This document shows positions 6,709 to 24,075 of a stretch of 64,000 bases of DNA, in pieces. The translations under genes and the position numbers were made by a program. Where the stretch lies: NCBI GenBank assembly GCA_031362805.1, contig JANLTG010000043.1:5395-69394 (forward strand), in the 5' to 3' direction. Source of the stretch: a bacterium (GTDB lineage: Bacteria; Verrucomicrobiota; Verrucomicrobiia; Limisphaerales; RI-55). Every line of letters starts with the position of its first letter. The first letter of the stretch is position 1. Below the pieces are notes generated by a model. The model was given only the letters and a program-made list of their open reading frames with translations. It was not told the DNA's origin and ran no database searches.

Positions 6709-6712
6709 GGTA

Positions 6713-9165: not shown

Positions 9166-9190
9166 GCGTGCCAGAGATTTGAGGCTGCCA

Positions 9191-10846
9191 TCACGTGCCC
9201 CGGCGAGCGAGCTGCCGCTTCACCAGTTCGATCATCCCGGTCGCTTCCCGTCGGTAGAACGGAATTAGTGCAACCAGCGCCAGACCGGCCAGACTGCCGA
9301 CGGTTCCTCCCAGGCAGGTAAGGACGAAGGGATGAGCCTGCGGCAGGATCAGTTGAGGCAGGTACGCACCGACAAGGGTAACCACCCAAAATGGGGAGTG
9401 GCTTAAGCATCCCTTCCACAAGTCCGACCTAGTCACCGGACCGGATCGGCCGACGATGTGGTATTGGATTGGTAAACGGACCAGGAGTCCGAACACCGAA
9501 ACGGCCAGGGCCACACCCAATGGCCCGAAATACAAGCCGGCGACGAAGGAGCCCAGCGTAACCGTGGAAATGGCAATGCCCGAAATAAGAATATCCCGGT
9601 TGCGACGCTGAGTTGTCAGCAGCCACATGGAAGCACCCGCAATCGGATAATAGAGGGCCGTGAGCGACAACGCGGCGAAGACCGGCACCACCGCCGTCCA
9701 CTTAGAGCCCAAGGCCAACAGGACGAGCGGCCGAGACAACCCGAGAAAGAGACCGGCGATCGGAAAACTGACGAGAGCCATCGCATTGTAGATTTGTAGA
9801 AAGTGGCTTCGATAGCGCTCCGGTTGGTCCTGAAGGCGAGACAATACGGGAACAAACACCTTGTCGAAGGGAACCAGGAATTGGTCCAGCGGCCGCATTA
9901 TCAGGGCCATTGCCCGGGAATAAACCCCGACCGCGTCCGCGCCAAAGTAACGGCCTAGCAGCAGGCTATCAGCGTTACTGGTGATCCGCCTTAGAAGCGT
10001 CGCGAAGGTGATGCTCGCTCCAAAGCGAAGCATGGAACGAGTGCCGCTCCCGGATTTAGGCAGTTGCGGGCGCCAACCTGAGGCGATCCAAGCCATTGTC
10101 AATTCGGTCAGTGCCATGCCCAGTTGCGCGCCCACGAGAGACCAGTAACCGAAGTTGTAGGCGGCCATAACCATGCCGACAACCAGACAAGCCGTCATGG
10201 ACCCCAGATCAATCAGCGCCAAGGCCGTGAAACGCATTTGCCGATTCAGCAAGGCCAGATGTTGAACCGCTGCGCCGCCGGCAAAAAGGGTCAACGAGAG
10301 GGCAATCGTGATGCCCAGCAACCGCGAATCGTGATAATACCACGCCATCAAGGGTGCCAGCGCAATGCCGATCGAGGTGCAGCCGAGTCCGACAGCGAGG
10401 TTAGCCCAGAAAAGGTTGGAAACCTGGGCATGCGTAATGGTCTGCTGCTGCACGGTGGCGGTGGAGAGCCCGGCCTCTCGGAAAAGGTGCAAGATCTGGG
10501 TCAGCGCCAAACCCATGGCGACCAGCCCAAAGTCTGCGGGGTTGAGCATCCGTGCAAGGACAACGGTCAGGATCATGTACAATCCCATCCGTGCAACCTG
10601 CGAGAACGTCGTGACTACTCCACCGGAGAACGCGCGGCTTCCCAAGTTATGAATTAAGTGGTCCGTCCGGAAATGTTGTTCAGCCTCCCGGTTTTCCACA
10701 GCAGGAGACCCGGCCAAGTTTGGCAGCGCGCCTCCCTTTCCGACACCTGTGGGCTGAGGGTTGGAAGCGATAACGATGGGAACAGTCACGTCAAGAAATG
10801 GATTACGAAGGCGCGCAAGCCTACTTCTCCACCGACACGGAGGCAT
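9191..10846 (-). CDS. Wzx-type polysaccharide flippase (MOP/PST family)
   Basis: 551 aa with about 12-14 TM helices. ARMGLYMILTVVLARMLNPADFGLVAMGLALTQILHLFREAGLSTATVQ is typical of polysaccharide biosynthesis (Polysacc_synt) proteins. Confidence 0.8.
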   Translation of the reverse strand: MPPCRWRSRLARLRNPFLDVTVPIVIASNPQPTGVGKGGALPNLAGSPAVENREAEQHFRTDHLIHNLGSRAFSGGVVTTFSQVARMGLYMILTVVLARMLNPADFGLVAMGLALTQILHLFREAGLSTATVQQQTITHAQVSNLFWANLAVGLGCTSIGIALAPLMAWYYHDSRLLGITIALSLTLFAGGAAVQHLALLNRQMRFTALALIDLGSMTACLVVGMVMAAYNFGYWSLVGAQLGMALTELTMAWIASGWRPQLPKSGSGTRSMLRFGASITFATLLRRITSNADSLLLGRYFGADAVGVYSRAMALIMRPLDQFLVPFDKVFVPVLSRLQDQPERYRSHFLQIYNAMALVSFPIAGLFLGLSRPLVLLALGSKWTAVVPVFAALSLTALYYPIAGASMWLLTTQRRNRDILISGIAISTVTLGSFVAGLYFGPLGVALAVSVFGLLVRLPIQYHIVGRSGPVTRSDLWKGCLSHSPFWVVTLVGAYLPQLILPQAHPFVLTCLGGTVGSLAGLALVALIPFYRREATGMIELVKRQLARRGT

Positions 10847-11585
10847 GCAACGCTTCGCTGACTGGCAAAATTCTCGATCCGGATTTCATTGCCTGTCGCA
10901 CGACCTCTTCAAACAACCGCGGAGTGCAGCCAAAGCGGCTTGGCTGATCGCAGACGTCATGGGTGGCGAAGACAAGCCAGCCACAGGCTTGGGTATTCTG
11001 TTCAATGACTTGCTCGATCAGCGCGGGCGTGCTTTTCTCAATGAAGAATGCTCGAAGGTTGTTGAGATCCATCGTTCCAACGTTGAAGGTCTGTCCGCCG
11101 CCGCGGCAGCCGGCGAAGTACTTCGACGCTCGTCGTTTATTCTGCGGACGAGGGACATCGATGGGATACGACATGGTCTTGAACTCAGCGGTCGGCAGTA
11201 ACCGTTGCAACGATTCCCGGTTCTGAACGAGAGACCGGTCGAAGTCCTGAGAGGGGGTGTTCCACGCATGGTCGTGGCCAAAAGTATGGCAACCCAATTC
11301 GTGACCGGCAGATAAAAGTGGCTGGAAGTCGGCCTGTGAGAAGATCGGACCAACTGGTGAGTTGGCGCGATCCATCAATCCCAAGGCGGCATAAAAGGTG
11401 CCCCGGAGGTTGTGCCTTTGGAGAATCCCTCCCCCAACCTGTAGGGCGGTTCGTGGAAAATCGTCAAAACTGAATGAAATTAGTGGTCGGCTATTACGCA
11501 TTGGGACCATGCGCCGCACGGACAGTTGTGAAAGACTCAACCGAAATCGATCCCACGCTTTCGCCCAAATGCTGTTGACAGTCAT
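10821..11585 (-). CDS. Polysaccharide deacetylase (NodB homology, CE4)
   Basis: Shows SFSFDDFPRTAL (the DD metal/catalytic motif) and GHELGCHTFGHDH (the His-His motif). 254 aa. Confidence 0.8.
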   Translation of the reverse strand: MTVNSIWAKAWDRFRLSLSQLSVRRMVPMRNSRPLISFSFDDFPRTALQVGGGILQRHNLRGTFYAALGLMDRANSPVGPIFSQADFQPLLSAGHELGCHTFGHDHAWNTPSQDFDRSLVQNRESLQRLLPTAEFKTMSYPIDVPRPQNKRRASKYFAGCRGGGQTFNVGTMDLNNLRAFFIEKSTPALIEQVIEQNTQACGWLVFATHDVCDQPSRFGCTPRLFEEVVRQAMKSGSRILPVSEALHASVSVEK

Positions 11586-12958
11586 GCCAATGCCTGATTG
11601 ACGTGTGGGGCGGGATGCTCATTGAAAATGTCCGGAATGGCGTTGGCTGCCAGATAGGACCGGGGAGTTTCGATCAGCAGCAGCAGCATGAGAAACCAAC
11701 TCGGGTCGAGTCGGAAAAACGCAGTTTCGGAGTTGTTAAAGGCAATTCCCAACACCCAAATTGTCAGGGCCACTCGGCCGAACATATTTCCTGCAAGCAT
11801 GAGCCTGGCAGATCTTCGCCCCCAGACTACCAGTAACACTACCAGTAGCCCCACCCCGACAAAGCCACCGCCAAGATACATATCAATGAAGCCATTGTGC
11901 GCCGAGTTCATGAAAATGAACTCCTGTTGAATTCGTTCCGCCTCGCTGGTATGCCAAAATGAGAAATAGCCGCTCCCGAAGACCGGCTCTATTCTCGCCT
12001 GTTGCGCCATGTCCCAAATCTCAGTACGCCCGGTTAATGTTCTGCTCTTGCCCAATGCCTCCAGAATGCTACCAGACAAATCAAGGGATTTTTCAGAGAT
12101 GACAACAACCACGAAAACGGCGATACAACTTATCAGGACTCTAAAAGGGTTTTGCATACGAGCCAATCGTCCAGAACCCCACAACAGAAAGCACCCCAGG
12201 CTGAAACAGAGAAGCGAAGTGACGCTTTGACAAATGGCCATCAGCCACCCGCCCATAGCGAGAATTCCGAAACGAAGCCAAATCGCACGCCGCTTCTCCG
12301 CGCTTGGTTCCTGACGGTATAGCGCCATCAAATCCAGAACAATGAACAGCCCGAACAGAAACAAAATGGCTCCGAGATGGCTCTTATGCATGCTGACCCC
12401 GCATGGCATATTGTCGCCGCCCCTGGCAACCGTCCGTCCTATGGACGGAAAGTATTTGATGAACACGACGGAGAGGGGAAACATGACGTAAGCGGCGCGC
12501 ACCACCACTAGGCGAATGGACTCCAGCGGGTTGACTTCGGTCAGCACTACCAGCGCCGTAATCACCGCGCCATAATCCTTCACGATACGCTTAAGCGTGG
12601 GAAAACTAAATTCCGACCAACTGGCGCTCAAGGCCAGGAACAAGTAAAGCAGCATCAGAATCTTGTTTCGAGAAAAGAACGCTCCCCAAGAGAAGCCGCG
12701 CCGTTTCAGGACGATCAAAGCGGCGACCATTAGGCCCAAGAAGATAGCCAGATCAATGGGATTCCCATCCTGATCCCCACCGCTGGTACCAATCCCGATC
12801 CATGCCAGCCAGAACGAGTAGGGGCGTGAACCAATCGTGCCCAGCCACAACATCGGAATCAGCAGCGCCTTGGAAGACATTTGGCGCTCCTTCATGTCCT
12901 GTCGGATCAGCCAGTAAATGAATCCGTAGGAAAGCCATAGTGCTAACAGAGGAGGCAT
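11582..12958 (-). CDS. O-antigen ligase/Wzy-like polymerase family membrane protein
   Basis: 458 aa and polytopic. It has a Wzy_C-like loop and ...MNSAHNGFIDMYLGGGFVGVGLLVVLLV. There is a 4-nt overlap with the downstream gene. Confidence 0.65.
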   Translation of the reverse strand: MPPLLALWLSYGFIYWLIRQDMKERQMSSKALLIPMLWLGTIGSRPYSFWLAWIGIGTSGGDQDGNPIDLAIFLGLMVAALIVLKRRGFSWGAFFSRNKILMLLYLFLALSASWSEFSFPTLKRIVKDYGAVITALVVLTEVNPLESIRLVVVRAAYVMFPLSVVFIKYFPSIGRTVARGGDNMPCGVSMHKSHLGAILFLFGLFIVLDLMALYRQEPSAEKRRAIWLRFGILAMGGWLMAICQSVTSLLCFSLGCFLLWGSGRLARMQNPFRVLISCIAVFVVVVISEKSLDLSGSILEALGKSRTLTGRTEIWDMAQQARIEPVFGSGYFSFWHTSEAERIQQEFIFMNSAHNGFIDMYLGGGFVGVGLLVVLLVVWGRRSARLMLAGNMFGRVALTIWVLGIAFNNSETAFFRLDPSWFLMLLLLIETPRSYLAANAIPDIFNEHPAPHVNQALA

Positions 12959-13048
12959 AGCGGCAGGGTCTCAAGCGTTGCTTCCCAGCTCAGTTCCGGC
13001 GAGGAACGATGATTCGATTCAACTTAGGGTTGGGCCGCACATTGGCGA

Positions 13049-13936
13049 CTACATCGCCCGCTCCCGGACTACCGTAATTCCGAAAAACGCAAGCAGGCGC
13101 CCCAAATGGTTGCACAGCTTGATCAGGTAATTCATGAAGTGGTGTTGCCCCGCCATCAGTAGCAATGGAAGCACAATTGAATAGAGGGGAATTGCCAGTA
13201 ACGCCTTGCCAAGATTTAACCACCGCCCCTCCGGATGCCGGAACGAATTGCGGCCGCGCAGCAGGGCGCGCTTGATCATGACCTTGCGGTTCCAGCGACT
13301 GGGCGGAACAATCTCATGCACAATCGCCTCGTTGCACCAAATGAACTTATGTCCGGCGGCCATCATGCGGCGAAAGAAATCGACATCGCCGCCGCCAGTA
13401 CCGAATGCGGGATCAAAAACGGGGTCGAGCCCTTTGATAATCGAGCGATCAAACAACACATTGCCCGTACGGCATTCGGTCCACGGCATGACGTAGCCGG
13501 TCTCGTGCTCGGGGCGTTCGTAGAATCCACCCTTCTTCACCCAGTCAGGCGTGCCTGGCTCAAAGTGAGGACGAACGGGAGCCAGTACGCCAGCAACCTG
13601 GAAGCTCGTCAGGGTCTGAAATAAACGGAGCAACCAGTCGGGCTCGGGGAATTCATCGTCATCAATGAAGGCAATCAAGCCGCCGGTCGCGTTGGCGAGG
13701 GTCGTGTTGCGGGCGTGGGAGATACTGCGACGTGGATCGGCACAGTAGACGATCCGCAAGGAAGCATGCAGGGCTGCGTCCGCCACCACGGAGCGAGCCG
13801 ATTCCGCGGCGTCGTTGTCCGTGATGACGATTTCGTAGGTAAAGCGATCGTCCGTCCGCTGGCGTTGCAAATCCTCCAGTAGCCGCTTCAGCCAAACGGG
13901 GCGCTGATAGGTGCAGACACAAACACTGATATGCAT
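13049..13936 (-). CDS. Family 2 glycosyltransferase
   Basis: MHISVCVCTYQRPVWLKRLLEDL..., VITDNDAAESA and FIDDDEFPEPDWL (DxD) are classic GT2 features. Confidence 0.85.
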   Translation of the reverse strand: MHISVCVCTYQRPVWLKRLLEDLQRQRTDDRFTYEIVITDNDAAESARSVVADAALHASLRIVYCADPRRSISHARNTTLANATGGLIAFIDDDEFPEPDWLLRLFQTLTSFQVAGVLAPVRPHFEPGTPDWVKKGGFYERPEHETGYVMPWTECRTGNVLFDRSIIKGLDPVFDPAFGTGGGDVDFFRRMMAAGHKFIWCNEAIVHEIVPPSRWNRKVMIKRALLRGRNSFRHPEGRWLNLGKALLAIPLYSIVLPLLLMAGQHHFMNYLIKLCNHLGRLLAFFGITVVRERAM

Positions 13937-14137: not shown

Positions 14138-15961
14138 TTAGGGCTGCTCGATGAGAGTTCTCTGGATCAATTCACTGGTGAGCAGAAGGTGGATTTCCGA
14201 CGTATAATTGCCGGTGCCGGTGACGTGCGCGTTCACCATTCTGGCAATGTTCCGGCCGTCCAGATACGGCCGCGAGAGCGTAAGCGGATCCAGCAACATT
14301 TCCTTCACAAAAGGAGCGAGTTGATGGCGATACCAATAGCGATAGTGGTAATACTTGTGCCGGCCGAGGAAGAGTTTTTCCAGATGCAGCGGGGCAAGGA
14401 TTCGGTCCACCTTTGCCAGCCATTGCGGCATGCCGTAATCGTAGGCGTATTCGGCCTTGAAGGTAAATTCCTCGAATTGTTCCGAAATTCTGCCTAGCAG
14501 CCCACGCCGCCCCAAAGGACCGCGATCCGTGGGAAAGGAAGCCAAAGCCGGATTCCCATCAGAAATAAGCCGCTCGGCGATGTGCCGGTTCAACCTGATC
14601 CCCTCGGGGGCCTGATAAGCGACTGCCACCAACTCGTTGTCGAGGTACGGAGAACGAACGGTGATCTGGGACTGCTCCAGAGCGAATCGCGCAAAATGGT
14701 GCCAGGGAACCTGCTTGAACGCGATGAAGGTTAGAGCGTCACACTGCCTTTCACCCTTATACAGCATCCGTGCGTTGTCCAGATGGGGTGTGAAATCGTT
14801 CGCAAACAGAGAACGGTCGAGCGATTTGGGCTTGAAAGCCACAAGTTGTCTCAGGATCTCGCTGCCATAGTTACCCGTCATCCGAATGGGGGCGATCTCC
14901 CTGCTTGCGATCCGGTTGGCAAATAGTGAGGCGGCACCGCTGGCGTCCATGCAACCGTCGGTGATGTAAACACATTGACTCGCGAGCGTGGGAAACTCCG
15001 AAAAGAAACTTCCACCCACAGTGAGCGTTCGATGCGACTGCCTGCAGACCGACGCGACACGGCGGGCAATCTTTGCATCCAAACATTCGCGAAAAACGCC
15101 CCGATGGCTATAGCAAGGAAGCTTGGAGCGTTCGAAGCGAGTCCATGCCATGATGATCCGCCCATCGAGACCGCCGGTAAGCGACATCGCGATCTGATCC
15201 GCGTTGCGGAAGTAGCGAGGCAGGATGCGGACAAAGGTTGCCTTAAGCTTTTCGTAGTAGTCGTCGGTCGAAAGTTTCTCCTGAGATTCCCAGGTTCCTT
15301 TGGAGAAATAGGTCTCCTTTTTAACCGGGCATCGGGGTTTGAAGGTCCAGATCGAACCCGGAGGCACCAAAGAGATGCCAGCGAAGAGCGTCCGGTTTTG
15401 CAGCACACAGCCCATGGTGAGCAACTCGCCCAGCTGCGGCATTTCGAGGCGCCGAAGGTGCGGGAGGATTTTCAGCAAAGCCTTGGCTTCGGACGCGAAG
15501 AAGAAGCCATCCTCATTTTCATGGAAATAAATTCGTCCCAATCCGTAACGATCATTGAACAAGACGACTTTGTTTTCACGAAGATCAATAAGTAGACCAC
15601 TGAAGGCGCCGTTCAATTTCGCCCAAAAACCGTCCCCTTGCTCTTCATAAAGATGCACCAAGTAACTGGCATTCGTGCTTTCAAAACTGTGTCCACCCGC
15701 CTTGAGGCGCTGGACTTCCGCGGGGTCGCCAAATTCCTCACCGGAAAAGATCAGGCACACGTCACGGGTTTCGTTCCAGCTGGGCAGGCAATCCGCAAAG
15801 GAGCCCGGCTGGCTAACCCAGGCAGCGGCGACATCCAACCCCTTTTCGACGAGCGTCCCAGAAGCGTAGGACGGCTCGTGCAACATGGAATTGCGCATCT
15901 CGCCGAGAGCCCCGCGGCGGCTGTCAGTGTTTGGGGAGATGAATCCGGCTATTCCAGGCAT
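14138..15961 (-). CDS. Asparagine synthase (AsnB)-family amidotransferase homolog lacking the N-terminal Cys nucleophile
   Basis: Track ORF is 14138..16054, and its 5' extension reads through the tRNA. The ATG at 15961 gives MPGIAGFISPN..., where AsnB enzymes have MCGI. An Ntn-like domain is followed by an AsnB synthetase-like domain (SLTGGLDGR, corresponding to the SGGLDS PP-loop). Confidence 0.75.
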   Translation of the reverse strand: MPGIAGFISPNTDSRRGALGEMRNSMLHEPSYASGTLVEKGLDVAAAWVSQPGSFADCLPSWNETRDVCLIFSGEEFGDPAEVQRLKAGGHSFESTNASYLVHLYEEQGDGFWAKLNGAFSGLLIDLRENKVVLFNDRYGLGRIYFHENEDGFFFASEAKALLKILPHLRRLEMPQLGELLTMGCVLQNRTLFAGISLVPPGSIWTFKPRCPVKKETYFSKGTWESQEKLSTDDYYEKLKATFVRILPRYFRNADQIAMSLTGGLDGRIIMAWTRFERSKLPCYSHRGVFRECLDAKIARRVASVCRQSHRTLTVGGSFFSEFPTLASQCVYITDGCMDASGAASLFANRIASREIAPIRMTGNYGSEILRQLVAFKPKSLDRSLFANDFTPHLDNARMLYKGERQCDALTFIAFKQVPWHHFARFALEQSQITVRSPYLDNELVAVAYQAPEGIRLNRHIAERLISDGNPALASFPTDRGPLGRRGLLGRISEQFEEFTFKAEYAYDYGMPQWLAKVDRILAPLHLEKLFLGRHKYYHYRYWYRHQLAPFVKEMLLDPLTLSRPYLDGRNIARMVNAHVTGTGNYTSEIHLLLTSELIQRTLIEQP

Positions 15962-15990
15962 GACGAATCGGGATGGAAACGTATGTGAAG

Positions 15991-16069
15991 TGGTGGAGCT
16001 GGGAAGGGCTTGAACCTCCATCGTCGCGCTGTTGCCAACGCGCCGCTCTGCCAATTGAGCTACAGCCCC
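15991..16069 (-). tRNA. tRNA-Ala(GGC)-like gene with non-canonical anticodon arm and T arm
   Basis: Minus-strand sequence: GGGGCTGTAGCTCAATTGGCAGAGCGGCGCGTTGGCAACAGCGCGACGATGGAGGTTCAAGCCCTTCCCAGCTCCACCA. It has a 7-bp acceptor stem with G3:U70, a canonical D arm, the loop TT-GGC-AA, TTCAAGC in the T loop, and an encoded ACCA end. At 79 nt it is 3 nt longer than canonical and needs a bulged A or an 8-nt anticodon loop, plus one extra C at the T-arm/acceptor junction. Folded by hand only. Confidence 0.6.
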
Positions 16070-16968
16070 TGAGATTGCAGACGCGACCGGTACCTATACA
16101 AAAACCAGCGAGCACGCAAGTTCGCATAAACGTCCTGCCAGTTGCCGGGAACGAGTTCCGTGAGCTTTCGGTGCAGCCCGAGCCCGAGCGCCAGTCGGCC
16201 GCGCCAGTTCAGGGGAACGTAGTACCGGGGAATTTCCACCAACTCAAACCCGTGATGTTTCTTGAAATCGCCCAAACTGCGTCGGCTCCAAACGCCATAC
16301 TGGAGCTGCACGATGCCCCGCTCGGCGCAGATTTCGATGGCCTTGGCGAGCAGCGCGTTGGTGGGAGACTTATCGCGATGAGCGACCAGCGAAATGATCT
16401 GCATAATGCTGGCAGATTTTCTATTCGGATGCAGGATCATCTTAATGAAACCGATAACTCCCCTTTCAAAAATGGCACTGATAAACAGGCTCCGATCCAT
16501 AAAGCTAGAATGGGCCCTCTTCAAGGTTTCGAAGTCTTTGCCGTAATGTTTTGACGGCCTGCCTTGAATCAGCGGCGACTCGTTGTAGATGGCATGAATG
16601 CCCCGGGCGAGTTCATCGCTGAATTCAACCGGTTGAATCGTGACCCCTTTCTTGCCCGCCTTTCGGACCACATTCCTCGTCTTATCGTTGACCTGCCGTT
16701 TCCACCAGTTTTCGTAGGTATCGATTCTCAGCACGGCGATTTTCTCCGGCAGGGATGGATAGCCGTATTCCCGGTCGGGCGTGGCTATTTGCTGCAGGAA
16801 CGAGAAGACGTCGACTCCAGAACCTTTCAAGTCTGATAGAAACATCCGGGGTTCTTCGACGTATTCGTGGTGCTCCGATCGCAATCGGGCAACGCGGGGA
16901 AAAATGCCCGAAACGGAGACGTCCTTGCCTTCGATGTTAATCCGGTTGCTTGGGGGTGCCAGAGTCAT
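16060..16968 (-). CDS. GNAT-fold FemAB/CelD-like (Acetyltransf_6-like) transferase, PEP-CTERM-locus type
   Basis: The ATG at 16968 gives MTLAPPSNRINIEGK.... The pattern KTRNVVRKAGKKGVTIQPVEF...IYNESP...GVIGFIKM...RDKSPTNALLAKAIEICAERGIVQLQYG...SLGDFKKHHGFELVEIPRYYVPL matches FemAB-related/CelD-like proteins of EPS loci. Its last 3 codons and stop lie inside the tRNA 5' end. Confidence 0.55.
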   Translation of the reverse strand: MTLAPPSNRINIEGKDVSVSGIFPRVARLRSEHHEYVEEPRMFLSDLKGSGVDVFSFLQQIATPDREYGYPSLPEKIAVLRIDTYENWWKRQVNDKTRNVVRKAGKKGVTIQPVEFSDELARGIHAIYNESPLIQGRPSKHYGKDFETLKRAHSSFMDRSLFISAIFERGVIGFIKMILHPNRKSASIMQIISLVAHRDKSPTNALLAKAIEICAERGIVQLQYGVWSRRSLGDFKKHHGFELVEIPRYYVPLNWRGRLALGLGLHRKLTELVPGNWQDVYANLRARWFLYRYRSRLQSQGL

Positions 16969-17008
16969 TGTCTTCAAAGCGAATGCGGGCCTTACCGTCA
17001 GACGGCGC

Positions 17009-18334
17009 TTACCAACAAATGCCGTAATACTCGCAACCGTTCCACTGGTTGGAGTCCACGATTCTCACCAGGTCGATCACCAGCTTTCCGGGCGTGAGGA
17101 ACTCCAAGGCCTGCCTGAAAGACTCCTCCTTGTGGCTAATCACAATCACGTCACTTTGCTCAACGAGGTCCCGGGCTGAAGAGCACATCAGGTTCGAGAT
17201 ATGGGGGATTTCCTTTTCGATATACTCCTTGTTCGCGCCGATCAACCGCGCGAGCGACACGTGCTGGTCATAGATCTTGATGGTGAACCCCTTGCCCAGC
17301 ATGGTTTCGATCACCTCAACAATCGGGCTGGAACGCAAATCGTCGGTGCCACCCTTGAAACTCAGCCCCAGGAAGCCGAGCGACCGGCCCTTGCAGCTCA
17401 ACAGCTTATTCACGACCCGCCCGATCTGGCGGCTGTTGCTTTCGAGCACGGCGTTGAGCATGGGAACGTCGAGGTCCATAGCCCGCGCTTCGTGCGTGAT
17501 CGCCTTCAGGTCTTTCGGGAGGCAGGAGCCGCCAAACGCGAAACCGGGTTTCAAGTAGTAGGGCGAGAGGTTGAGCTTGGTGTCCTGACAGAAAATGTTC
17601 ATGACGGCGTGGCTATCCACATTCGCTTCCTTGCAAATATTGCCAATTTCATTGGCGAAAGTGACTTTGACCGCATGGAAGCAGTTGTCAGCGTACTTGA
17701 CCATTTCGGCAACTCTCAGCTCGGTGTGGATCAGCGGCCCTGGAATCTTCGTATAAAGCGCGGCGAGCGCCTTCCCGGACGCTTCGTCATACTGGCCGAT
17801 GACGGTTTTGGGCGGATTGTAGAAGTCGTAAATCGAAGTGCCTTCGCGCAAGAATTCCGGATGCATACACAGGCCGAAATCCCGGCCCACCTTCCTGCCG
17901 GACGATTGCTCGAGCGTCGGAATGACGATGCTGTCCATCGTGCCCGGCATGACCGTGCTGCGAATGACGACCGTGAATCGACCCGGATGCGAGGCGAGGG
18001 CGGTGCCGATCTGTTCACAAACACGCTGCACGTAGCGGAGGTCGATGCTGCCGTTTGACCGGCTCGGGGTACCAACGCACACCAACGCAAGTTCCGAGTC
18101 GTGAATCGCCGCGGTCCAGTCGCTGGTAGCCACGAATGAGCCAGCGCCAACGACTTTGGCCATGAGAGTGTCGATATCCTTTTCGATGATCGGGCTCTTG
18201 CCGCTATTGATGAGATCGACTTTAACTTGATTGGGCTCGACGCCCAGAACCTTGTGTCCCAGCTCGGCAAAGCAAGCGCCGGTCACACACCCCACATAAC
18301 CCATGCCGAAGATACAGACTCGCATACTTGTCAT
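17009..18334 (-). CDS. Nucleotide-sugar 6-dehydrogenase (GDP-mannose dehydrogenase AlgD-like / UDP-glucose dehydrogenase family)
   Basis: 441 aa. The N-terminal Rossmann segment MRVCIFGMGYVGCVTGACFAELGHKVLGVEPNQVKVDLINSGKSPIIEKDI looks closer to AlgD than to Ugd by eye. The catalytic region reads GFAFGGSCLPKD. Confidence 0.8.
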   Translation of the reverse strand: MTSMRVCIFGMGYVGCVTGACFAELGHKVLGVEPNQVKVDLINSGKSPIIEKDIDTLMAKVVGAGSFVATSDWTAAIHDSELALVCVGTPSRSNGSIDLRYVQRVCEQIGTALASHPGRFTVVIRSTVMPGTMDSIVIPTLEQSSGRKVGRDFGLCMHPEFLREGTSIYDFYNPPKTVIGQYDEASGKALAALYTKIPGPLIHTELRVAEMVKYADNCFHAVKVTFANEIGNICKEANVDSHAVMNIFCQDTKLNLSPYYLKPGFAFGGSCLPKDLKAITHEARAMDLDVPMLNAVLESNSRQIGRVVNKLLSCKGRSLGFLGLSFKGGTDDLRSSPIVEVIETMLGKGFTIKIYDQHVSLARLIGANKEYIEKEIPHISNLMCSSARDLVEQSDVIVISHKEESFRQALEFLTPGKLVIDLVRIVDSNQWNGCEYYGICW

Positions 18335-19459
18335 TTAGTTGGCTATCGTTTTTGCATCGCACTTTGTCGTCTTTGCCTGCCTGTCACCCGGACAGACGGA
18401 CTCGACTGCTTTGAGAAAACTTTGGAACATCCCCTCGGTCGATGCTTCACGAAAAATGTCCTGCCGTGCCTGCCGTGAAAATTCAGCTCGCACCGCGTCG
18501 TTATCGAGGAGATACAGAATTCGTTCCTTCAGTTGGATAATGTCGTCTTCAGGGACCATGAAGCCGTTACGACCTGACGTCAGGCAATGAATTTCCGGCG
18601 GCTGCATGCCCTGCTCCGTAATGACAGGCAGGCTCCAGTAGAACGCTTGGTTCAAACCCAGGCCTACATGTCCTGGCACGACGAACAGATCGGCGGCCTT
18701 GAACAGCCGACTGATCTGCAGGTCTTCAGGATCGTAAAGCTCTCCCAGGTAAACTGTGTTCTTTGGGTTGATTCTGGCTTGGAGCGGCTTTGGCATTCCG
18801 GCGCCAACGATCACCGCTCCGATGTCGTCGCGGTCCAGTTGACGGAACACCTCGATCAGATGCTCGACCTTCTTACGTTCACCATTGAGTCCCATCGTGC
18901 CGGTGAAAAGCACAAATTTCCGGAAGCGGATACCCAGTGCCGCTTTGATTTGATCCTTTGTCTCACGAATTTCCGGGATGTCCTCGAAATTCATGGTGTT
19001 GTTAGCAGGAACCGCCTTCCGCCGGTGGGCGGGCTTCAGAAACTCCAGCTGATTTGCCGAATAGAGCAGGATGCCGTCACTTAGTGAATGAACGTAGTTT
19101 GACAAGACCCGGCGCAAAAGGCCCTCCGGTTCGTCAAGGTTGACACCCTTTGACCAATAAACGACAGGTATTCCCTTCCACTTGAGCCAATGGATGAGCG
19201 GCCAAAGGATGCGTTCCTTCAAATGAACAAAGAGGATGACCACGTCGGGCTTCCTATCCTCAACCAGCTTCATATAGCGCCGGAATTTGAAAGGCGCCTG
19301 GTGCAATTCAAACTGAATGGGCCGCTGATTTTGGGGCGGCACCGAATTTGTGAGCACCTTCAAATCCCAGCCGTTCTCTCGGAAGCGCCGCCAGAAATAG
19401 TTGTACAGCGACACCCGATAGTGCAGGAGCTTACCGGAGACTAGGAGGACGGTTTTCAT
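18335..19459 (-). CDS. GT-B fold glycosyltransferase (GT4-like)
   Basis: 374 aa. The C-terminal half carries the GT1/GT4 motif (...DLFVVPGHVGLGLNQAFYWSLPVITE...NGFMVPEDD...). Confidence 0.65.
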   Translation of the reverse strand: MKTVLLVSGKLLHYRVSLYNYFWRRFRENGWDLKVLTNSVPPQNQRPIQFELHQAPFKFRRYMKLVEDRKPDVVILFVHLKERILWPLIHWLKWKGIPVVYWSKGVNLDEPEGLLRRVLSNYVHSLSDGILLYSANQLEFLKPAHRRKAVPANNTMNFEDIPEIRETKDQIKAALGIRFRKFVLFTGTMGLNGERKKVEHLIEVFRQLDRDDIGAVIVGAGMPKPLQARINPKNTVYLGELYDPEDLQISRLFKAADLFVVPGHVGLGLNQAFYWSLPVITEQGMQPPEIHCLTSGRNGFMVPEDDIIQLKERILYLLDNDAVRAEFSRQARQDIFREASTEGMFQSFLKAVESVCPGDRQAKTTKCDAKTIAN

Positions 19460-19509
19460 GAAGGATCAGCCTTGATACTTCGTTAACCAGGCCGACGCGT
19501 GGGCCACGA

Positions 19510-20715
19510 TCAGGATGCAACCGCCGCAACTTTGGCCGACACGGCACTCATCTGTGAATGCTGATGCTGATCGAGCAGCGCCAAGGCGGCGAACATGGTG
19601 GCCTGGCCCCAATGCAGCGTTGGCGTCTTGTTGGTGATCAGAGGGTACTTGCGATAATAAAAGTAACCAGCTTTGTCCTGCATGTGTTTGATGGTCCATT
19701 CCGCCACGTTAACGGCGGTGGGAACGCTGGCGGGATGCAGATCGCGCAAGTTGACGAGCGTCTGGATGGCTTGCGAAGCGCATTGGATATCAATCGGCAG
19801 CGTTTTGTAATCGTAGTAACGCGGAGTGCCGTCGGGCAGAAAGAAGGTATGAACGAAATATTCATAGCCTCGCTTGAGCGCGGGCTCGTACCTGGTGGCA
19901 CCGGTCGCGCGGATAAAAATGGCAAGCGCTTCGAGCACATAGCCCGTATGGAAGGAATCGATCCACTTCCATTTCTCGCCCACCCCATAGTACCAGGCAC
20001 CCGCTTCCGTCTGATGATGCAACGTGTATTGAATCGCGCGCTCGGCCAACTCGCGATAGCGTGGGTTGGGCGAAAAGGAGTTTACACGCGCCAACAGGCT
20101 CGCACCGATCATGCTCGAATTATGCACCAGGATGTTTGCGTTGGGATAATACTGAAGGAGGATACCTTCCGGAAACTCAAGCCATCCCAGTTCGTCGAGA
20201 ATGAAGTCACAGGCGCTCCGGGCGACTTCCAGGTAGCTCCGGTCGTCCAGCAGCTCGTAGGCATCAAGAAACGCGTGAGCAATCAATCCGGTCCAGACGA
20301 TGGTGGGTGTGCCCTTGGAAATGTTACCGCCGCGCGATTGATAATCGAAGTGGTTGCCCCAGGAGAAACCCTTGAATTGCGGGCAGCGGTTCTCGATCAG
20401 CCATTGCAGGCAAAACTTCGCCTTCTTCAGGAATAACGGATCACCGTGCGCCTGGTAACGGCGCAAGTAGCCCTGGGCGAAAAAGCCCATGCCCTTGGTG
20501 CTCATGCCGGGCTTGATACCCAACAAGGGCCGAAGGTTCAGGGGAAACCGCCGCACGCCCTGCTGCCAGGCGATTTTCAGCAGGGGGTGACCGAGAGTGA
20601 CGAAGGGGGCCAAGGGCGACGACAAGCCATCAAAGGTGTCGTAAGCCTTCCAATCGGCCGCCTCGACCCAACGATCAAGCCGGGTCAACGAATCGTGTAT
20701 ATTCTGGTGCTGCAT
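19510..20715 (-). CDS. Hypothetical protein, probable (alpha/alpha)6-barrel polysaccharide-modifying enzyme
   Basis: The ATG at 20715 gives MQHQNIHDSL.... W/Y/H-rich repeating helix-pair motifs are present (GFSWGNHFDYQSRGG..., WKWIDSFHTGYVLEAL, HWGQATMFAALA). The family was not recognised. Confidence 0.3.
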   Translation of the reverse strand: MQHQNIHDSLTRLDRWVEAADWKAYDTFDGLSSPLAPFVTLGHPLLKIAWQQGVRRFPLNLRPLLGIKPGMSTKGMGFFAQGYLRRYQAHGDPLFLKKAKFCLQWLIENRCPQFKGFSWGNHFDYQSRGGNISKGTPTIVWTGLIAHAFLDAYELLDDRSYLEVARSACDFILDELGWLEFPEGILLQYYPNANILVHNSSMIGASLLARVNSFSPNPRYRELAERAIQYTLHHQTEAGAWYYGVGEKWKWIDSFHTGYVLEALAIFIRATGATRYEPALKRGYEYFVHTFFLPDGTPRYYDYKTLPIDIQCASQAIQTLVNLRDLHPASVPTAVNVAEWTIKHMQDKAGYFYYRKYPLITNKTPTLHWGQATMFAALALLDQHQHSQMSAVSAKVAAVAS

Positions 20716-20734
20716 GTAGCGGAATGCCTTACAA

Positions 20735-21970
20735 TCACAGGGAAGCGTAGGCGGCCAACAGGTTCTTGCTGACCACCGACCACTGAAGCTCCTTTTCGAC
20801 ACGCTCACGGCCAAAGCGACCCATCTGCTCGCGGCGAATAGGGTCATCCATCAGCGCGGCGGTGGCCCCGGCAAAGGCCAGTTCGTCGTTGCAGGGGACA
20901 TATACCGCAGCGTCCTGCGCAGAGTAACGGGTCTCCCTGAGATCGAAGGTCACGATTGGCTTGCCGCAAGCCATGTATTCCATGACCTTGATCCACGTGG
21001 AGACGTCATTGAGCGGGCTCGACGGATCGGGGTCCATGCAAATGTCCGCCGCGGCCAAGTTCGCCTGAAGGTCCTCGTCGGAAATCCAGCCGGTCAGCTC
21101 GACGAATTTCTCCAACTTCAAAGTCCGGGTCAAGGCGCGCAAGTCCTCGAGCGAATCGCCACTGCCCATGATGACGCAGTAAAAATCTTCGCGCTTCAGA
21201 TCGTAGACGAGGTGTTTTAGCGAGCGGATGAGGTAATCCACGCCGTCCTGGGGATTCAGGCTGCCAATATAGACGAGAATGGTCTTGCCCAAGGCGCGCA
21301 GCCGCGGGGTCGGGGTGGCAATCTGCATGCGCTTCTGGTTGGGACCGTTCCGGACCACAAAAATGTGCTCGGGCTGGCGATGACCGCGCTGGATCTGGAT
21401 CGCCTTGTAAGACTCGTTGGTCGCGATGAGCACGTTGGCGAGCTTCAGATTGAACCATTCGATCCACTGCAACACGGTCGCGACGAAGTCGTGCGTCGCA
21501 CCATAGCGGGAGCGGTACAACTCCGGGCAGAGGTCGTGATGATCGAAGATGTATTTTTTCCCGAGCAACCGCCAAGGCAGGGCAGCGGCCCAAAGGGTAT
21601 CCGGAGGATTATGGGCATGAATCACGTCAAAGCCGTGCTTGCAGGCGACATAGATACTCATCAAAAAGCACGCGCTGGAGAAGTAAACGTATTCGCTGAC
21701 ATAGCCGACCAGCGACCGAAGCTTGAGGCTTAGGCGCTGGAAAAGCGTCGGGTTATCCGTCGGCGTCTTCTGAAAGAGTTCGAGGCGCGGCAACCGATAG
21801 ACCTGGACGCCCTTGACCACCTCAGAGCGGCTCTGGCCGGGCTTCCGCATGCCAATGACGGTCACGGAATACCCGGCTTCCGTCAGGGCATCGGCTTCGT
21901 TCTTGACCCGCGTATCGTTGGGATACGCGTTTTCGACGAACATCAGGACTCTACGGGCGGAAGCGTTCAT
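20735..21970 (-). CDS. Family 4 glycosyltransferase (group 1)
   Basis: 411 aa. RVLMFVENAYPNDTRVKNEADAL... is followed by the C-terminal EX7E-type region (ICMDPDPSSPLNDVSTWIKVMEYMACGKPIVTFDL). Confidence 0.8.
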   Translation of the reverse strand: MNASARRVLMFVENAYPNDTRVKNEADALTEAGYSVTVIGMRKPGQSRSEVVKGVQVYRLPRLELFQKTPTDNPTLFQRLSLKLRSLVGYVSEYVYFSSACFLMSIYVACKHGFDVIHAHNPPDTLWAAALPWRLLGKKYIFDHHDLCPELYRSRYGATHDFVATVLQWIEWFNLKLANVLIATNESYKAIQIQRGHRQPEHIFVVRNGPNQKRMQIATPTPRLRALGKTILVYIGSLNPQDGVDYLIRSLKHLVYDLKREDFYCVIMGSGDSLEDLRALTRTLKLEKFVELTGWISDEDLQANLAAADICMDPDPSSPLNDVSTWIKVMEYMACGKPIVTFDLRETRYSAQDAAVYVPCNDELAFAGATAALMDDPIRREQMGRFGRERVEKELQWSVVSKNLLAAYASL

Positions 21971-22216
21971 AAGAAAGGACCCAGCGATTCAAAAGCATGC
22001 ACCAATCTCGTGCCACCGAATAGTCCAAGACAGGCTGGAATAACTATGCACCGGAGTTCACGCCGAGACCGCGGTTTCGCGGCGACCCACTCACAGGAAG
22101 CAGCCGTACGGCCATTCAGATATCTGCGAGGCCCAAGCATTTGACCTCACGCAGTCTTCCGCTAACGCGACTCCCGCAGGCGAGATCAAAGCAAAGTCAA
22201 TCGGCCTTTGGTCGCG

Positions 22217-23323: not shown

Positions 23324-23419
23324 GTTCAAAAGCAGAAAACTGAAAGCTGAAAGCAGAAATGAACTGCTGACCGGAGGCTGTTCAAAAGCAGAAAACTGAA
23401 AGCGGAAATTAAATGCGGT

Positions 23420-23791: not shown

Positions 23792-24075
23792 AATCAAAAG
23801 CAGAAAACGGAAAACTGAAAACGGAAAGTGGAAATGTTAAACCGCAGATGAGCAGGAGAAGGAGAAAAGGAGCGGTGGAGTGAGCGAGGCGGACAAAACA
23901 TCCAACATCCAACATCCAACGTTCAACTTCGAGGGCAAGGCGCGCCCGGAGGATCGCGCCCCACCTGGAGTGAGGTTAACGTCCGTCGCGAGGCGCGCCG
24001 GATGGCAGCCGGGGCGGCCGCGCTCCCCGGTTCAAAAGCGGAAATGCCGACGGTCATAGACCGCCGCTACAGGGG
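23792..24075. repeat. Mosaic repeat spacer
   Basis: Contains CAAAAGC heptads, TTAAACCGCAGATG, AACATCC/AACGTTC heptads and GGCGCGCCCGGAGGATCGCGCCCCACCTGG (identical to the copy at 31058-31087). It also contains the GCGCGCCGGATGGCAGCCG..GCGCTCCCCGGTTCAAAAGCGG element. Confidence 0.85.

What the first reader, a model, noticed from the sequence alone, without database searches (positions are those of the whole stretch)
15991..16069. Aberrant tRNA-Ala(GGC)-like gene embedded in the operon and overlapping the upstream stop codon
The element keeps what AlaRS needs: a 7-bp acceptor stem with G3:U70, an A73 discriminator and an encoded CCA. It also keeps a normal D arm and a TTGGCAA anticodon loop. 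My hand fold cannot make it canonical. The 3' strand of the anticodon stem is C-A-GCGC, which forces either a bulged A or an 8-nt loop closed by CGCGU/GCGCG. The variable region is one nt long. There is one extra C between TTCAAGC-CCTTC and the acceptor strand, giving either an 8-nt T loop or an unpaired base at the 65/66 junction. The last three codons and the TAG of the FemAB-like gene (CAG GGG CTG TAG) lie inside tRNA positions 1-10. RNase P processing of a polycistronic transcript would therefore strip the stop codon from the upstream message. Only the extra C lies in a homopolymer run, so sequencing error cannot explain all the anomalies.
Basis: seen in the sequence. Interest (0 to 1): 0.55.

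Follow-up and report, generated by a model that had tools for sequence, protein, structure and literature searches.

The report
Anticodon-less alanine tRNA beside a Fem-like transferase
This is a real, conserved tRNA-alanine look-alike that has lost its anticodon loop and lies next to an enzyme related to those that take amino acids from charged tRNAs, so it probably supplies alanine for decorating a sugar polymer and not for making protein.

Summary
The 79-nt element at 15991-16069 (- strand) is real. It keeps a 7-bp acceptor stem with G3:U70, A73, an encoded CCA, and normal D and T loops. That stretch folds into a 7-bp stem capped by a GCAA tetraloop, followed by a normal 5-nt variable region. 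The "extra C" is a bulged base in the T stem.

I found 49 homologous Ala-like elements, 41 of them distinct. All 41 keep G3:U70, and all 49 end in A73. The central stem covaries. The central loop is 3-8 nt, mostly tetraloops, and never 7 nt.

Other clades of that enzyme carry Ser-, Thr-, Gly- or Asn-type tRNAs instead (86 of 149 loci in all).

Best reading (about 0.7): a private alanyl carrier, excluded from the ribosome, that serves the transferase in an exopolysaccharide operon. Charging and expression are untested.

The scan had already noted Ser-type versions in two other genomes. I found no published description.

The parts
15991..16069 (-). tRNA-Ala-like RNA gene, 79 nt including the encoded CCA (15991-15993). 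A73 is at 15994.
   Evidence: ARAGORN. RF00005 at 45 bits. My own covariance model R1 at 80.7 bits. MFE cloverleaf of -33.1 kcal/mol.
15995..16001 (-). 3' strand of the acceptor stem (CAGCUCC). U70 at 15997 pairs with G3 at 16067. The 5' strand is 16063-16069.
   Evidence: G3:U70 in 41 of 41 distinct relatives, G2:C71 in 41 of 41. Pair 6:67 covaries (AU 23, UA 8, GC 4, CG 3, GU 2, 1 unpaired).
16025..16042 (-). The hairpin that replaces the anticodon arm: a 7-bp stem (16036-16042 with 16025-16031) capped by the GCAA tetraloop (16032-16035).
   Evidence: MFE fold. 5 of the 6 modelled stem pairs show changes on both sides across relatives. Loop sizes in the 49 relatives: 4 nt in 33, 6 nt in 9, 3 nt in 4, 5 nt in 2, 8 nt in 1, 7 nt in 0.
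16002..16019 (-). T arm: GGAGG, a 7-nt loop UUCAAGC, then CCUUCC with one bulged base in the 3' strand.
   Evidence: Alignments A2 and A3. The same extra base is in L083, L084 and L001. 15 of 49 rows have a bulge here. No indel in the contigs of 3 runs.
16060..16062 (-). TAG stop codon of the Fem-like gene, which is tRNA nt 8-10 (U8 A9 G10).
   Evidence: The same '-10' arrangement occurs in 20 of 50 Ala-type loci and in L054 (Asn-type) and L057 (Thr-type).
16060..16968 (-). Gene for a 302-aa Fem/MprF-like double-GNAT protein, the presumed aminoacyl-tRNA-dependent transferase.
14138..15961 (-). Gene for an asparagine-synthetase-like protein that starts MPGIAG (Pro2 where the glutaminase Cys should be) and has TGGLDG in place of the SGGxDS loop. 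It starts 30 nt after the tRNA's CCA.
   Evidence: Pfam GATase_7 and Asn_synthase. NCBIfam TIGR03108 and TIGR01536, weak. Sequence. A homologue starts within 400 nt downstream of the Fem-like gene in 89 of 137 loci with enough flank; 66 of those 89 begin MPGI.
17009..18334 (-). Nucleotide-sugar dehydrogenase gene directly upstream, given as context: the module lies inside an exopolysaccharide operon.
   Evidence: TIGR03026 at 415.8 bits. Flippase, Wzy, glycosyltransferases and a deacetylase lie downstream. DegT aminotransferase, GFO oxidoreductase, Bac_transf and Wzz lie upstream.

Best explanation
The element is a private alanyl-carrier RNA that the ribosome cannot use.

Proposed steps (all inferred):
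1. It is transcribed with the exopolysaccharide operon.
2. It is cut out like a tRNA (RNase P at the 5' end; the CCA is encoded).
3. It is charged with alanine by the cell's ordinary AlaRS, which reads the acceptor stem (G3:U70, A73) and not the anticodon.
4. The Fem/MprF-like double-GNAT transferase encoded immediately upstream uses it as its aminoacyl donor. The enzyme transfers alanine to an acceptor in polysaccharide synthesis, most likely an amine of an amino sugar on the nucleotide- or lipid-linked repeat unit.

Because the anticodon loop is replaced by a closed stem and tetraloop, the charged RNA cannot decode. The alanine pool for the glycan is thereby kept apart from translation.

Shown here: the anatomy, its conservation and covariation, the invariant AlaRS identity set, the tight linkage to the enzyme gene, and the enzyme's fold.

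Not shown: transcription, processing, charging, use by the enzyme, and the acceptor.
For: (1) Identity set. G3:U70 and G2:C71 are present in 41 of 41 distinct Ala-type elements, while pair 6:67 varies freely by compensatory change. A73 is present in 49 of 49.

(2) No anticodon. Across the 49 elements the central arm is a stem with 5 of 6 pairs changed on both sides. 95.6% of cells are paired, against 87.6% in shuffles (0 of 500 as high) and at most 51.4% when partners are slid. Loops are mostly tetraloops such as GCAA and UUCG, and none has 7 nt.

(3) The L-shape elements are kept: U8, the GG of the D loop and a UUCRANY T loop.

(4) Linkage. 47 of 50 Ala-type elements start within 14 nt after the stop of the Fem-like ORF or overlap it. 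Over all types, 86 of 149 loci carry a tRNA(-like) gene beside the enzyme gene. All 3 relatives of this genome that have the enzyme also have such an RNA next to it.

(5) tRNA type follows the enzyme tree: 25 changes against a shuffled mean of 71.8 (minimum 65; 149 rows).

(6) The pattern across types fits charging by synthetases.
- The anticodon loop is lost in the Ala and Ser types, whose synthetases do not read the anticodon (established knowledge).
- The Thr type keeps G35 U36 in 17 of 17 while position 34 is U, C or A.
- The Gly type keeps UCC in 2 of 2.
- The Asn type keeps GUU.

(8) Precedents in print.
- FemX of Weissella accepts alanyl RNA helices and reads G2-C71 (PMC2655667, abstract).
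- Orf11, a double-GNAT (FemABX-like) enzyme of the BD-12 pathway, puts glycine from Gly-tRNA on streptothrisamine (PMC12945691, passages). The Sba18/Sbb17 structures that top my fold search are described as aminoacyl-tRNA-dependent peptide synthases complexed with streptothrisamine.
Against: - There is no expression, processing or charging data. No RNA run holds the stretch, which says nothing either way.
- 63 of 149 loci have the enzyme without a neighbouring tRNA, so the enzyme family can presumably use housekeeping tRNAs and the private RNA is not obligatory.
- In the closest relative by protein (L081, 69% identity) the element looks decayed: the acceptor stem has mismatches and the T arm is shortened, although it keeps the GCAA hairpin.
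- The enzyme reaches no curated Pfam or NCBIfam cut-off for Fem families. A shared fold does not prove aminoacyl-tRNA use.
- The acceptor is unknown. It could be a lipid or a protein, as for MprF or L/F-transferases.
- RNase P cleavage would remove the stop codon of the enzyme's own mRNA, which is awkward for a simple 'enzyme plus cofactor' operon.
- The bulged T stem could impair RNase P or AlaRS as well as EF-Tu.
Confidence: 0.7

Rival explanations
1. The RNA is mainly the partner of the downstream AsnB-like enzyme, or of both enzymes. This enzyme lacks the glutaminase cysteine. It would adenylate a carboxylate (for example a uronic acid) and use the free alpha-amine of the alanyl-RNA, or of the alanyl-sugar, as nucleophile. 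The three genes would then together build an amide bridge, not a simple N-alanyl decoration.
For: An AsnB-like gene starts within 400 nt downstream of the Fem-like gene in 89 of 137 loci, and 66 of those 89 begin MPGI with Pro2. The RNA gene, when present, lies between the two genes. The Asn_synthase domain is kept, with a PP-loop-like TGGLDG. A nucleotide-sugar dehydrogenase lies directly upstream. From memory: other AsnB homologues without the Cys make intramolecular amides (beta-lactam synthetase, lasso-peptide cyclases).
Against: No AsnB-family enzyme is known to me to use an aminoacyl-tRNA. The tRNA type follows the Fem-like tree, and I did not test it against the AsnB-like tree. The pairing may only mean two successive steps on one sugar.
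Confidence: 0.15
2. It is a cis-acting RNA element and not a carrier. As a tRNA-shaped RNase P site it would cut the polycistronic transcript between the transferase and AsnB-like cistrons. That cut would set their ratio or the half-life of the message, or sense alanine charging.
For: It is embedded in the operon, with no promoter-like or terminator-like site on the - strand in 15500-17300 (weak evidence). The ORF stop lies inside the tRNA in 27 of 50 Ala-type loci, 20 of them at nt 8-10, so processing and translation of the upstream cistron must interfere with each other.
Against: An RNase P site needs neither G3:U70 (41 of 41) nor A73 (49 of 49), nor type-specific identity nucleotides such as G35 U36 in the Thr type. 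These are synthetase determinants. 10 of 49 elements encode CCA. The type follows the enzyme clade. The two roles are not exclusive.
Confidence: 0.1
3. It still decodes on the ribosome, as an expanded-loop (quadruplet, frameshift-suppressor) or otherwise aberrant tRNA-Ala, as ARAGORN's 4-base anticodon 'ggca' and the first reader's GGC reading suggest.
For: ARAGORN reports a 4-base anticodon. The letters UUGGCAA occur in the arm.
Against: The supposed loop letters pair in a 7-bp stem. Relatives have unrelated loop sequences of 3-8 nt and covarying stems. The genome already has a canonical tRNA-Ala(GGC) and a tRNA-Ala(CGC).
Confidence: 0.02
4. It is a decaying tRNA pseudogene or a leftover integration site with no function.
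For: Its general tRNA score is low compared with the housekeeping copies (45 against 63-66 bits). One close relative (L081) looks degenerate.
Against: 49 elements from many assemblies keep all four helices with compensatory changes and an invariant identity set. They have a fixed position and orientation next to one gene family. The sequence is identical in three runs.
Confidence: 0.02

Closest known systems
Non-proteogenic tRNA-Gly isoacceptors (NP1-3) of Staphylococcus aureus, donors for FemXAB/FmhB
   Same: These are tRNAs charged by the normal synthetase and diverted from translation to a Fem-type transferase. They have unusual T-loop and D-loop features and low EF-Tu affinity (PMC7826273, passages).
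   Different: They keep a UCC anticodon and the anticodon identity nucleotides C35 and C36. They serve peptidoglycan. As far as I recall they are not encoded beside the enzyme genes. Here the anticodon loop is gone, the gene abuts or overlaps the enzyme gene, and the context is an exopolysaccharide operon.
tRNA-like domain of tmRNA
   Same: It is charged with alanine through G3:U70 and has no anticodon. This shows that AlaRS, and processing by RNase P as described in a review abstract, work on such an RNA (PMC3985003, abstract seen in the listing; the rest is established knowledge).
   Different: tmRNA is about 350 nt with an mRNA part and pseudoknots, and it works on the ribosome with SmpB and EF-Tu. 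This genome has its own tmRNA elsewhere (C149, tag ANQELALAA). The element here is a 79-nt full cloverleaf with a D arm and no coding part.
FemX of Weissella viridescens with Ala-tRNA-Ala
   Different: It uses the housekeeping tRNA-Ala and its acceptor is UDP-MurNAc-pentapeptide. Sequence identity to the protein here is 10-13%, and PF02388 is not reached.
Sba18/Sbb17 (PDB 9wqy, 9wqw, 9wqx) and Orf11 of the BD-12 pathway
   Different: These belong to secondary-metabolite pathways of Streptomyces. No private tRNA is mentioned in that review (0 occurrences of 'dedicated', 'tRNA gene' or 'anticodon'). I recall, but did not confirm from any call, that Sba18/Sbb17 and Orf11 are the same enzyme family.
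MprF / aminoacyl-phosphatidylglycerol synthases
   Different: These are membrane proteins with a flippase domain and a lipid acceptor, and they use housekeeping tRNAs.
Ser-type anticodon-less tRNAs beside Fem-like genes, noted earlier by this scan (e1-4760420, e1-4283467)
   Same: Same design and same enzyme family. I saw such Ser-type elements myself in 11 of the loci counted (for example L025, L029, L156).
   Different: Different amino-acid identity (class II Ser type with a long variable arm and G73). The Ala type has no sequence look-alike in the scan's index.

Membership tests
tRNA (Rfam RF00005) | Score at or above the curated gathering score | tested here: met
   45.0 bits against 29. 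The housekeeping tRNA-Ala genes of the same genome score 66.2 and 63.3.
tRNA (Rfam RF00005) | Acceptor, D and T arms with U8, the GG of the D loop and a UUCRANY T loop | tested here: met
   One bulged base in the T stem.
tRNA (Rfam RF00005) | 5-bp anticodon stem with a 7-nt loop carrying U33 and a 3-nt anticodon | tested here: not met
   7-bp stem plus GCAA tetraloop. 0 of 49 relatives have a 7-nt loop. ARAGORN cannot assign an amino acid.
Substrates of alanyl-tRNA synthetase (tRNA-Ala identity set) | G3:U70 wobble pair in the acceptor stem | tested here: met
   Present in the window. 41 of 41 distinct relatives.
Substrates of alanyl-tRNA synthetase (tRNA-Ala identity set) | A73 discriminator and G2:C71 | tested here: met
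   A73 in 49 of 49. G2:C71 in 41 of 41.
Substrates of alanyl-tRNA synthetase (tRNA-Ala identity set) | Actual charging with alanine | not testable with these tools
   Needs an in vitro AlaRS assay or acid-gel Northern blot.
Non-proteogenic tRNAs that serve Fem transferases | Functional link to a Fem-type aminoacyl transferase | tested here: inconclusive
   Genetic linkage is very strong (47 of 50 within 14 nt or overlapping; 86 of 149 loci over all types). Use by the enzyme is not shown.
Non-proteogenic tRNAs that serve Fem transferases | Poor binding to EF-Tu or the ribosome | not testable with these tools
   The missing anticodon loop excludes decoding by inference. EF-Tu affinity is unmeasured. 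T-stem bulges occur in 15 of 49 Ala-type and 18 of 19 Thr/Gly-type elements.
tmRNA | mRNA-like reading frame with tag peptide and pseudoknots | tested here: not met
   The element is 79 nt and ARAGORN does not call it a tmRNA. The genome's tmRNA is at C149.
Fem/MprF-type aminoacyl-tRNA-dependent transferases (the neighbouring protein) | Two GNAT lobes in the Fem arrangement | tested here: met
Fem/MprF-type aminoacyl-tRNA-dependent transferases (the neighbouring protein) | Curated sequence model (PF02388 FemAB, TIGR03019, PF09924) | tested here: not met
   Only weak matches. PF02388 in 17 of 18 members (best E 0.0033). TIGR03019 in 18 of 18 (best 1.2e-6; window protein 16 bits against a cut-off of 260). 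PF09924 in 2 of 18.
Fem/MprF-type aminoacyl-tRNA-dependent transferases (the neighbouring protein) | Catalytic Lys preceded by Phe near the C-terminus (FemX Lys305; DhpH-C Phe328 and Lys329) | tested here: inconclusive
   F235-K236 is invariant in 18 of 18 members. It lies at a similar distance from the end of the aligned range as Lys305 in 4ii9 (residues named in PMC12945691). I saw no residue-level superposition.

The most novel reading that the evidence does not exclude
A family of enzyme-plus-RNA cassettes, found in several phyla, decorates or cross-links exopolysaccharides with amino acids outside translation.

Each cassette has a Fem-like double-GNAT transferase, its own private 'aminoacyl carrier RNA' derived from a tRNA, and usually a cysteine-less AsnB-like ligase.

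The carrier RNAs have been stripped of whatever the cognate synthetase does not need:
- The Ala and Ser types have no anticodon loop.
- One Ser type (L072) lacks the D and anticodon arms altogether.
- The Thr and Gly types keep only the anticodon identity nucleotides, plus a bulged T stem and a D loop without GG.

Cassettes can be stacked (L099: Ala cassette followed by Thr cassette), which suggests stepwise non-ribosomal peptide building on a sugar.

Placing the enzyme's stop codon in tRNA nt 8-10 ties translation of the enzyme to maturation of its carrier.
Probability: 0.45. Interest if true: 0.9.

Novelty: new variant of a known kind. Interest (0 to 1): 0.82.

Why it matters
Apart from tmRNA, tRNAs that work outside translation are known as ordinary or slightly altered isoacceptors that still carry an anticodon. 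Here the anticodon loop has been deleted, while the synthetase identity set stays invariant and the gene is welded to a transferase gene. This would be a free-standing tRNA reduced to an amino-acid handle.

It also bears on an old gap in glycobiology. From memory, many bacterial polysaccharides carry alanyl, seryl, threonyl or glycyl groups on amino sugars or uronic acids, and the enzymes that attach them are mostly unassigned. The tRNA types seen here are Ala, Ser, Thr, Gly and Asn.

The cassettes give directly testable candidates. They also give compact synthetase-charged carrier RNAs that cannot decode, which could be of use in synthetic biology.

Tried and rejected
- Quadruplet-anticodon or frameshift-suppressor reading (ARAGORN 'ggca'): rejected on comparative grounds.
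- Sequencing error: rejected.
- Pseudogene: rejected.
- RNA evidence: no RNA holder is listed among 17 runs. Only DNA contigs could be laid, so nothing can be said on expression, ends or processing.
- Reverse association. R1 was run over 150 further genomes of the phylum at E <= 1e-15. It gave 4 hits of 70.8-73.2 bits, all canonical tRNA-Ala(CGC) by ARAGORN, so no free-standing anticodon-less element turned up in that sample. This says little, because the enzyme itself is patchy: 4 of 31 genomes, own and relatives.
- Sequence search of the enzyme profile against PDB chains gave only weak single-GNAT matches (PaiA, E 6e-4). Fem relatives appeared only by fold.
- Literature. The searches found no description of an anticodon-less tRNA, or of a tRNA gene, coupled to a Fem-like gene. 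Their terms were: tRNA-like / FemAB / polysaccharide; tetraloop / anticodon loop / aminoacyl-tRNA transferase; non-proteinogenic or dedicated tRNA; 'anticodon-less' and variants; aminoacyl-tRNA-dependent / exopolysaccharide / Fem-like / alanylation. Term look-ups inside PMC7609411, PMC13434031 and PMC12945691 also found none. The library lacks most subscription journals, so this does not prove that nothing is in print.
- A second motif match in the window, on the - strand near 13229 inside the GT2 gene, was not matched by R1. I take it as chance.
- I did not run complex prediction on the transferase and the AsnB-like protein, because I do not claim that they bind.
Full report
**What is in the window**

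On the - strand, 16069 down to 15991 reads as a 79-nt tRNA-shaped gene.
- ARAGORN finds it as the only tRNA-type gene of the window. It cannot assign an amino acid and offers a 4-base anticodon 'ggca'.
- Rfam's general tRNA model matches at 45.0 bits (gathering score 29). It needs a 5-nt insertion in the anticodon loop and one insertion in the T stem.
- The two canonical tRNA-Ala genes of the same genome (GGC on contig C210, CGC on C183) score 63.3 and 66.2 bits.

The minimum-free-energy fold (-33.1 kcal/mol) has these parts:
- a 7-bp acceptor stem with G3:U70
- U8 A9
- a 4-bp D stem with an 8-nt loop that contains GG
- two unpaired G
- a 7-bp stem closed by the tetraloop GCAA
- a 5-nt variable region
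- a T arm, then A73 and CCA

With a canonical 7-nt T loop, the T stem carries one bulged base in its 3' strand.

The hand fold of the middle is not. The letters UUGGCAA are half stem and half tetraloop, and the variable region has normal length.

**Not an artefact**

Contigs of three public DNA runs cover the element with no difference and no indel. Two of the runs may be the source of this assembly. The third is another sample of the same study. Relatives from other assemblies (L083, L084, L001) have the same extra T-stem base.

**The neighbours**

The element lies in a long - strand exopolysaccharide operon.
- Directly upstream (window 17009-18334): a nucleotide-sugar dehydrogenase.
- Further upstream (window 18335-33637): glycosyltransferases, a DegT aminotransferase, a GFO-type oxidoreductase, an initiating sugar transferase and a Wzz/kinase.
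- Downstream (window 2106-13936): a GT2, Wzy, a deacetylase, a flippase, a hexapeptide acyltransferase and an MBOAT.

Directly upstream of the RNA gene is a 302-aa ORF (16060-16968). Its last codons and TAG are tRNA nt 1-10. Thirty nt after the CCA starts an asparagine-synthetase-like gene. Its product begins MPGIAG, with proline where the glutaminase cysteine should be.

I saw no promoter-like or terminator-like site on the - strand between 15500 and 17300. That fits co-transcription but is weak evidence.

**The 302-aa protein**

Curated sequence models give only weak hints:
- window protein: Acetyltransf_1, E 0.009
- across 18 family members: PF02388 FemAB in 17 (best E 0.0033), PF13480 in 16, TIGR03019 in 18 (best E 1.2e-6), PF09924 in 2
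- all are below their cut-offs

An AlphaFold2 model built on the 18-sequence alignment is confident (pLDDT 88.1, pTM 0.84).
- Foldseek against the PDB puts the aminoacyl-tRNA-dependent peptide synthases Sbb17 and Sba18 first (E 3e-10, TM 0.55-0.58). MprF aminoacyl-phosphatidylglycerol synthase domains, Weissella FemX, FemA and S. aureus FemX also rank high, interleaved with some CoA-dependent tandem-GNAT acetyltransferases at lower TM.
- Single-domain acetyltransferases follow with 130-150 aligned residues.

So the protein has the double-GNAT fold of enzymes that take an aminoacyl group from a charged tRNA.

An invariant Phe235-Lys236 may correspond to the Phe-Lys pair named as catalytic in DhpH-C, and to Lys305 in FemX (PMC12945691, passages). 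I could not check the superposition.

**The same arrangement elsewhere**

The protein family is large: 4641 proteins at E <= 1e-3 among 5662 candidates.
- I fetched 80 loci from species genomes, the best 80 of 97 confirmed.
- I fetched 80 loci from metagenomes, the best 80 of 447 confirmed.

ARAGORN found 43 tRNA-type genes in the first set, 42 of them on the enzyme's strand, and 29 in the second set.

I built a covariance model (R1) from 24 Ala-type elements. It also found elements that ARAGORN had missed, such as L001, L004 and L020.

Counting one protein row per locus:
- 155 of 162 rows were kept. 7 were dropped for lacking a stop in the locus or lying outside 250-480 aa.
- 86 of the 149 rows with enough flank have a tRNA(-like) gene on the same strand, within 50 nt before to 450 nt after the stop, or 60-420 nt upstream. 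The types are Ala 50, Thr 16, Ser 11, Asn 5, Gly 2, doubtful Ala 2.
- 63 rows have none, and 6 are cut by a contig end.
- From this genome's tRNA density I would expect fewer than one by chance.

**The Ala type**

49 elements (41 distinct) align to the model at 62-92 bits.
- G1-C72, G2-C71, G3-U70, G4-C69 and C5-G68 are each present in 41 of 41.
- Pair 6:67 is AU 23, UA 8, GC 4, CG 3, GU 2, with 1 unpaired.
- All 49 end in A73.
- In the central stem, 5 of 6 modelled pairs have changes on both sides.
- Overall 95.6% of cells pair, against 87.6% in shuffles (0 of 500 as high) and at most 51.4% when partners are slid by 1-3 columns.
- Folding the central segment alone gives loops of 4 nt in 33, 6 nt in 9, 3 nt in 4, 5 nt in 2 and 8 nt in 1, and never 7. 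GCAA and UUCG are the commonest.

The window's nearest relatives show the point directly:
- window: CGCGUUG-GCAA-CAGCGCG
- L085: the same stem lengthened by one pair, with a GAAA loop
- L084: CACACUG-UUUA-CAGUGUG

A bulged base in the 3' strand of the T stem occurs in 15 of 49. CCA is encoded in 10 of 49.

By record titles, the Ala type in the genome set comes mostly from Verrucomicrobiota MAGs.

**Position relative to the enzyme gene**

Among 50 Ala-type loci:
- 20 have the ORF's stop codon at tRNA nt 8-10, as in the window.
- 6 have the ORF running 32 nt into the tRNA, and 1 has it running 42 nt.
- 8 start 0-1 nt after the stop.
- 12 start 5-14 nt after the stop.
- One each lies at +68, at +200, and upstream of the gene.

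The nt 8-10 overlap also occurs with an Asn-type (L054) and a Thr-type (L057) element.

**Own genome and relatives**

The genome (94.7% complete) has one copy of the enzyme gene and one such RNA. Counting the own genome and 30 relatives, 4 of 31 have the enzyme. The three relatives that have it also have a tRNA-like gene next to it: two Ala type and one Thr type. The module is therefore patchy and accessory.

**The other types, and why they matter for the mechanism**

- **Ser type.** These are class II, with the long variable arm and G73. Their anticodon arm is again a closed hairpin, often GCAA. One, L072, has only the acceptor stem, variable arm and T arm.
- **Thr type (17) and Gly type (2).** They keep a 7-nt loop. 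In the Thr type G35 U36 is present in 17 of 17, while position 34 is U, C or A. The Gly type has UCC in 2 of 2. 18 of the 19 have an extra pyrimidine in the 5' strand of the T stem, and their D loops lack GG.
- **Asn type.** These look canonical, with GUU.

The pattern is what one expects if the only constraint is charging by the cognate synthetase. By established knowledge, AlaRS and SerRS ignore the anticodon, while ThrRS, GlyRS and AsnRS read it.

tRNA type follows the enzyme phylogeny. A FastTree of 155 proteins needs 25 label changes on 149 rows, against a shuffled mean of 71.8 (minimum 65 in 200 shuffles). Among the 86 rows with a tRNA it needs 10, against 33.6 (minimum 30). Related loci share labels by descent, so this shows co-inheritance and is not independent proof of specificity.

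L099 carries two cassettes in tandem: enzyme, Ala-type RNA, paralogous enzyme, Thr-type RNA.

**The AsnB-like partner**

A homologue starts within 400 nt downstream of the transferase gene, on the same strand, in 89 of 137 loci with at least 400 nt of flank. 66 of those 89 begin MPGI. Where no tRNA gene is present, the two ORFs are 5-20 nt apart. Its role is open and is treated under the rivals.

**Interpretation**

The evidence is best explained by a private alanyl-carrier RNA for the neighbouring transferase, charged by the housekeeping AlaRS and unable to decode.

Two precedents make each half plausible:
- FemX of Weissella takes alanine from acylated acceptor-arm helices and reads G2-C71 (PMC2655667, abstract).
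- Orf11, a double-GNAT enzyme of the BD-12 pathway, transfers glycine from Gly-tRNA to streptothrisamine (PMC12945691, passages). The Sba18/Sbb17 structures that top the fold search are complexed with the same compound.

The nearest biological analogy is the set of non-proteogenic tRNA-Gly of S. aureus. These keep their UCC anticodon and bind EF-Tu weakly (PMC7826273, passages). tmRNA shows that an Ala-charged RNA with G3:U70 and no anticodon is workable.

What is new here is the deletion of the anticodon loop in a free-standing cloverleaf, the physical coupling to the enzyme gene, and the polysaccharide context.

The acceptor is inferred only from context: an aminotransferase, a dehydrogenase and a deacetylase in the locus.

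Transcription, processing, charging and transfer are all unshown. The stop-codon overlap implies that RNase P cleavage would leave the transferase message without a stop. Whether this is regulatory or only tolerated is unknown.

**Prior knowledge**

My full-text searches found nothing that describes such RNAs (look-ups). The library lacks most subscription journals.

This scan had already reported Ser-type versions beside Fem-like genes in two other genomes (e1-4760420 and e1-4283467, the latter marked as checked later). I saw Ser-type elements independently in my loci. The Ala type had no look-alike in the scan's index.

Noticed in passing
window 14138-15961 (-): The asparagine-synthetase-like protein begins MPGIAG (Pro2 instead of the catalytic Cys) and has TGGLDG instead of SGGxDS. 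A homologue follows the Fem-like gene in 89 of 137 loci, and 66 of those 89 begin MPGI. It cannot use glutamine in the usual way, so its nucleophile is unknown.
   Followed up: partly
L099:2501-4839: Two cassettes in tandem: Fem-like gene, Ala-type anticodon-less RNA (3367-3440), paralogous Fem-like gene (3755-4747), Thr-type tRNA (4765-4839). This suggests stepwise addition of two amino acids.
   Followed up: partly
L072:974-1027: A Ser-type element of about 54 nt reduced to acceptor stem, variable-arm hairpin and T arm. It has no D arm and no anticodon arm, and lies 87 nt after the Fem-like ORF.
   Followed up: no
L025:2003-2092 and 3081-3173: Two Ser-type anticodon-less elements flank one Fem-like gene, one upstream and one downstream.
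   Followed up: no
L040-L077, L099, L172 (Thr and Gly types): 18 of 19 Thr- or Gly-type neighbours have an extra pyrimidine in the 5' strand of the T stem, and their D loops lack GG. Position 34 is U, C or A while G35 U36 is fixed. A34 is unusual for a bacterial tRNA-Thr.
   Followed up: partly
L081:2106-2178: In the closest relative by protein (69% identity) the element keeps the GCAA hairpin but has acceptor-stem mismatches and a shortened T arm. It scores 37.4 bits with R1. This may be a decaying copy.
   Followed up: no
G000:C1:12734-12832: ARAGORN calls a 99-nt 'tRNA-Ala(cgc)'. It does not fold as a cloverleaf and R1 does not match it, so it is probably a false call.
   Followed up: partly
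window 6238-6876, 17009-18334, 28974-30107, 31709-32893: A hexapeptide acyltransferase, a nucleotide-sugar dehydrogenase, a DegT aminotransferase and a GFO-type oxidoreductase occur together. From memory this resembles the set that makes 2,3-diamino uronic acids (WbpA/B/E/D-like). Such a sugar would offer a free amine as acceptor. I did not analyse this further.
   Followed up: no
G000:C137:191-265 and C224:10199-10272: Two tRNA-Cys(GCA) genes differ by a single extra T in the variable region.
   Followed up: no
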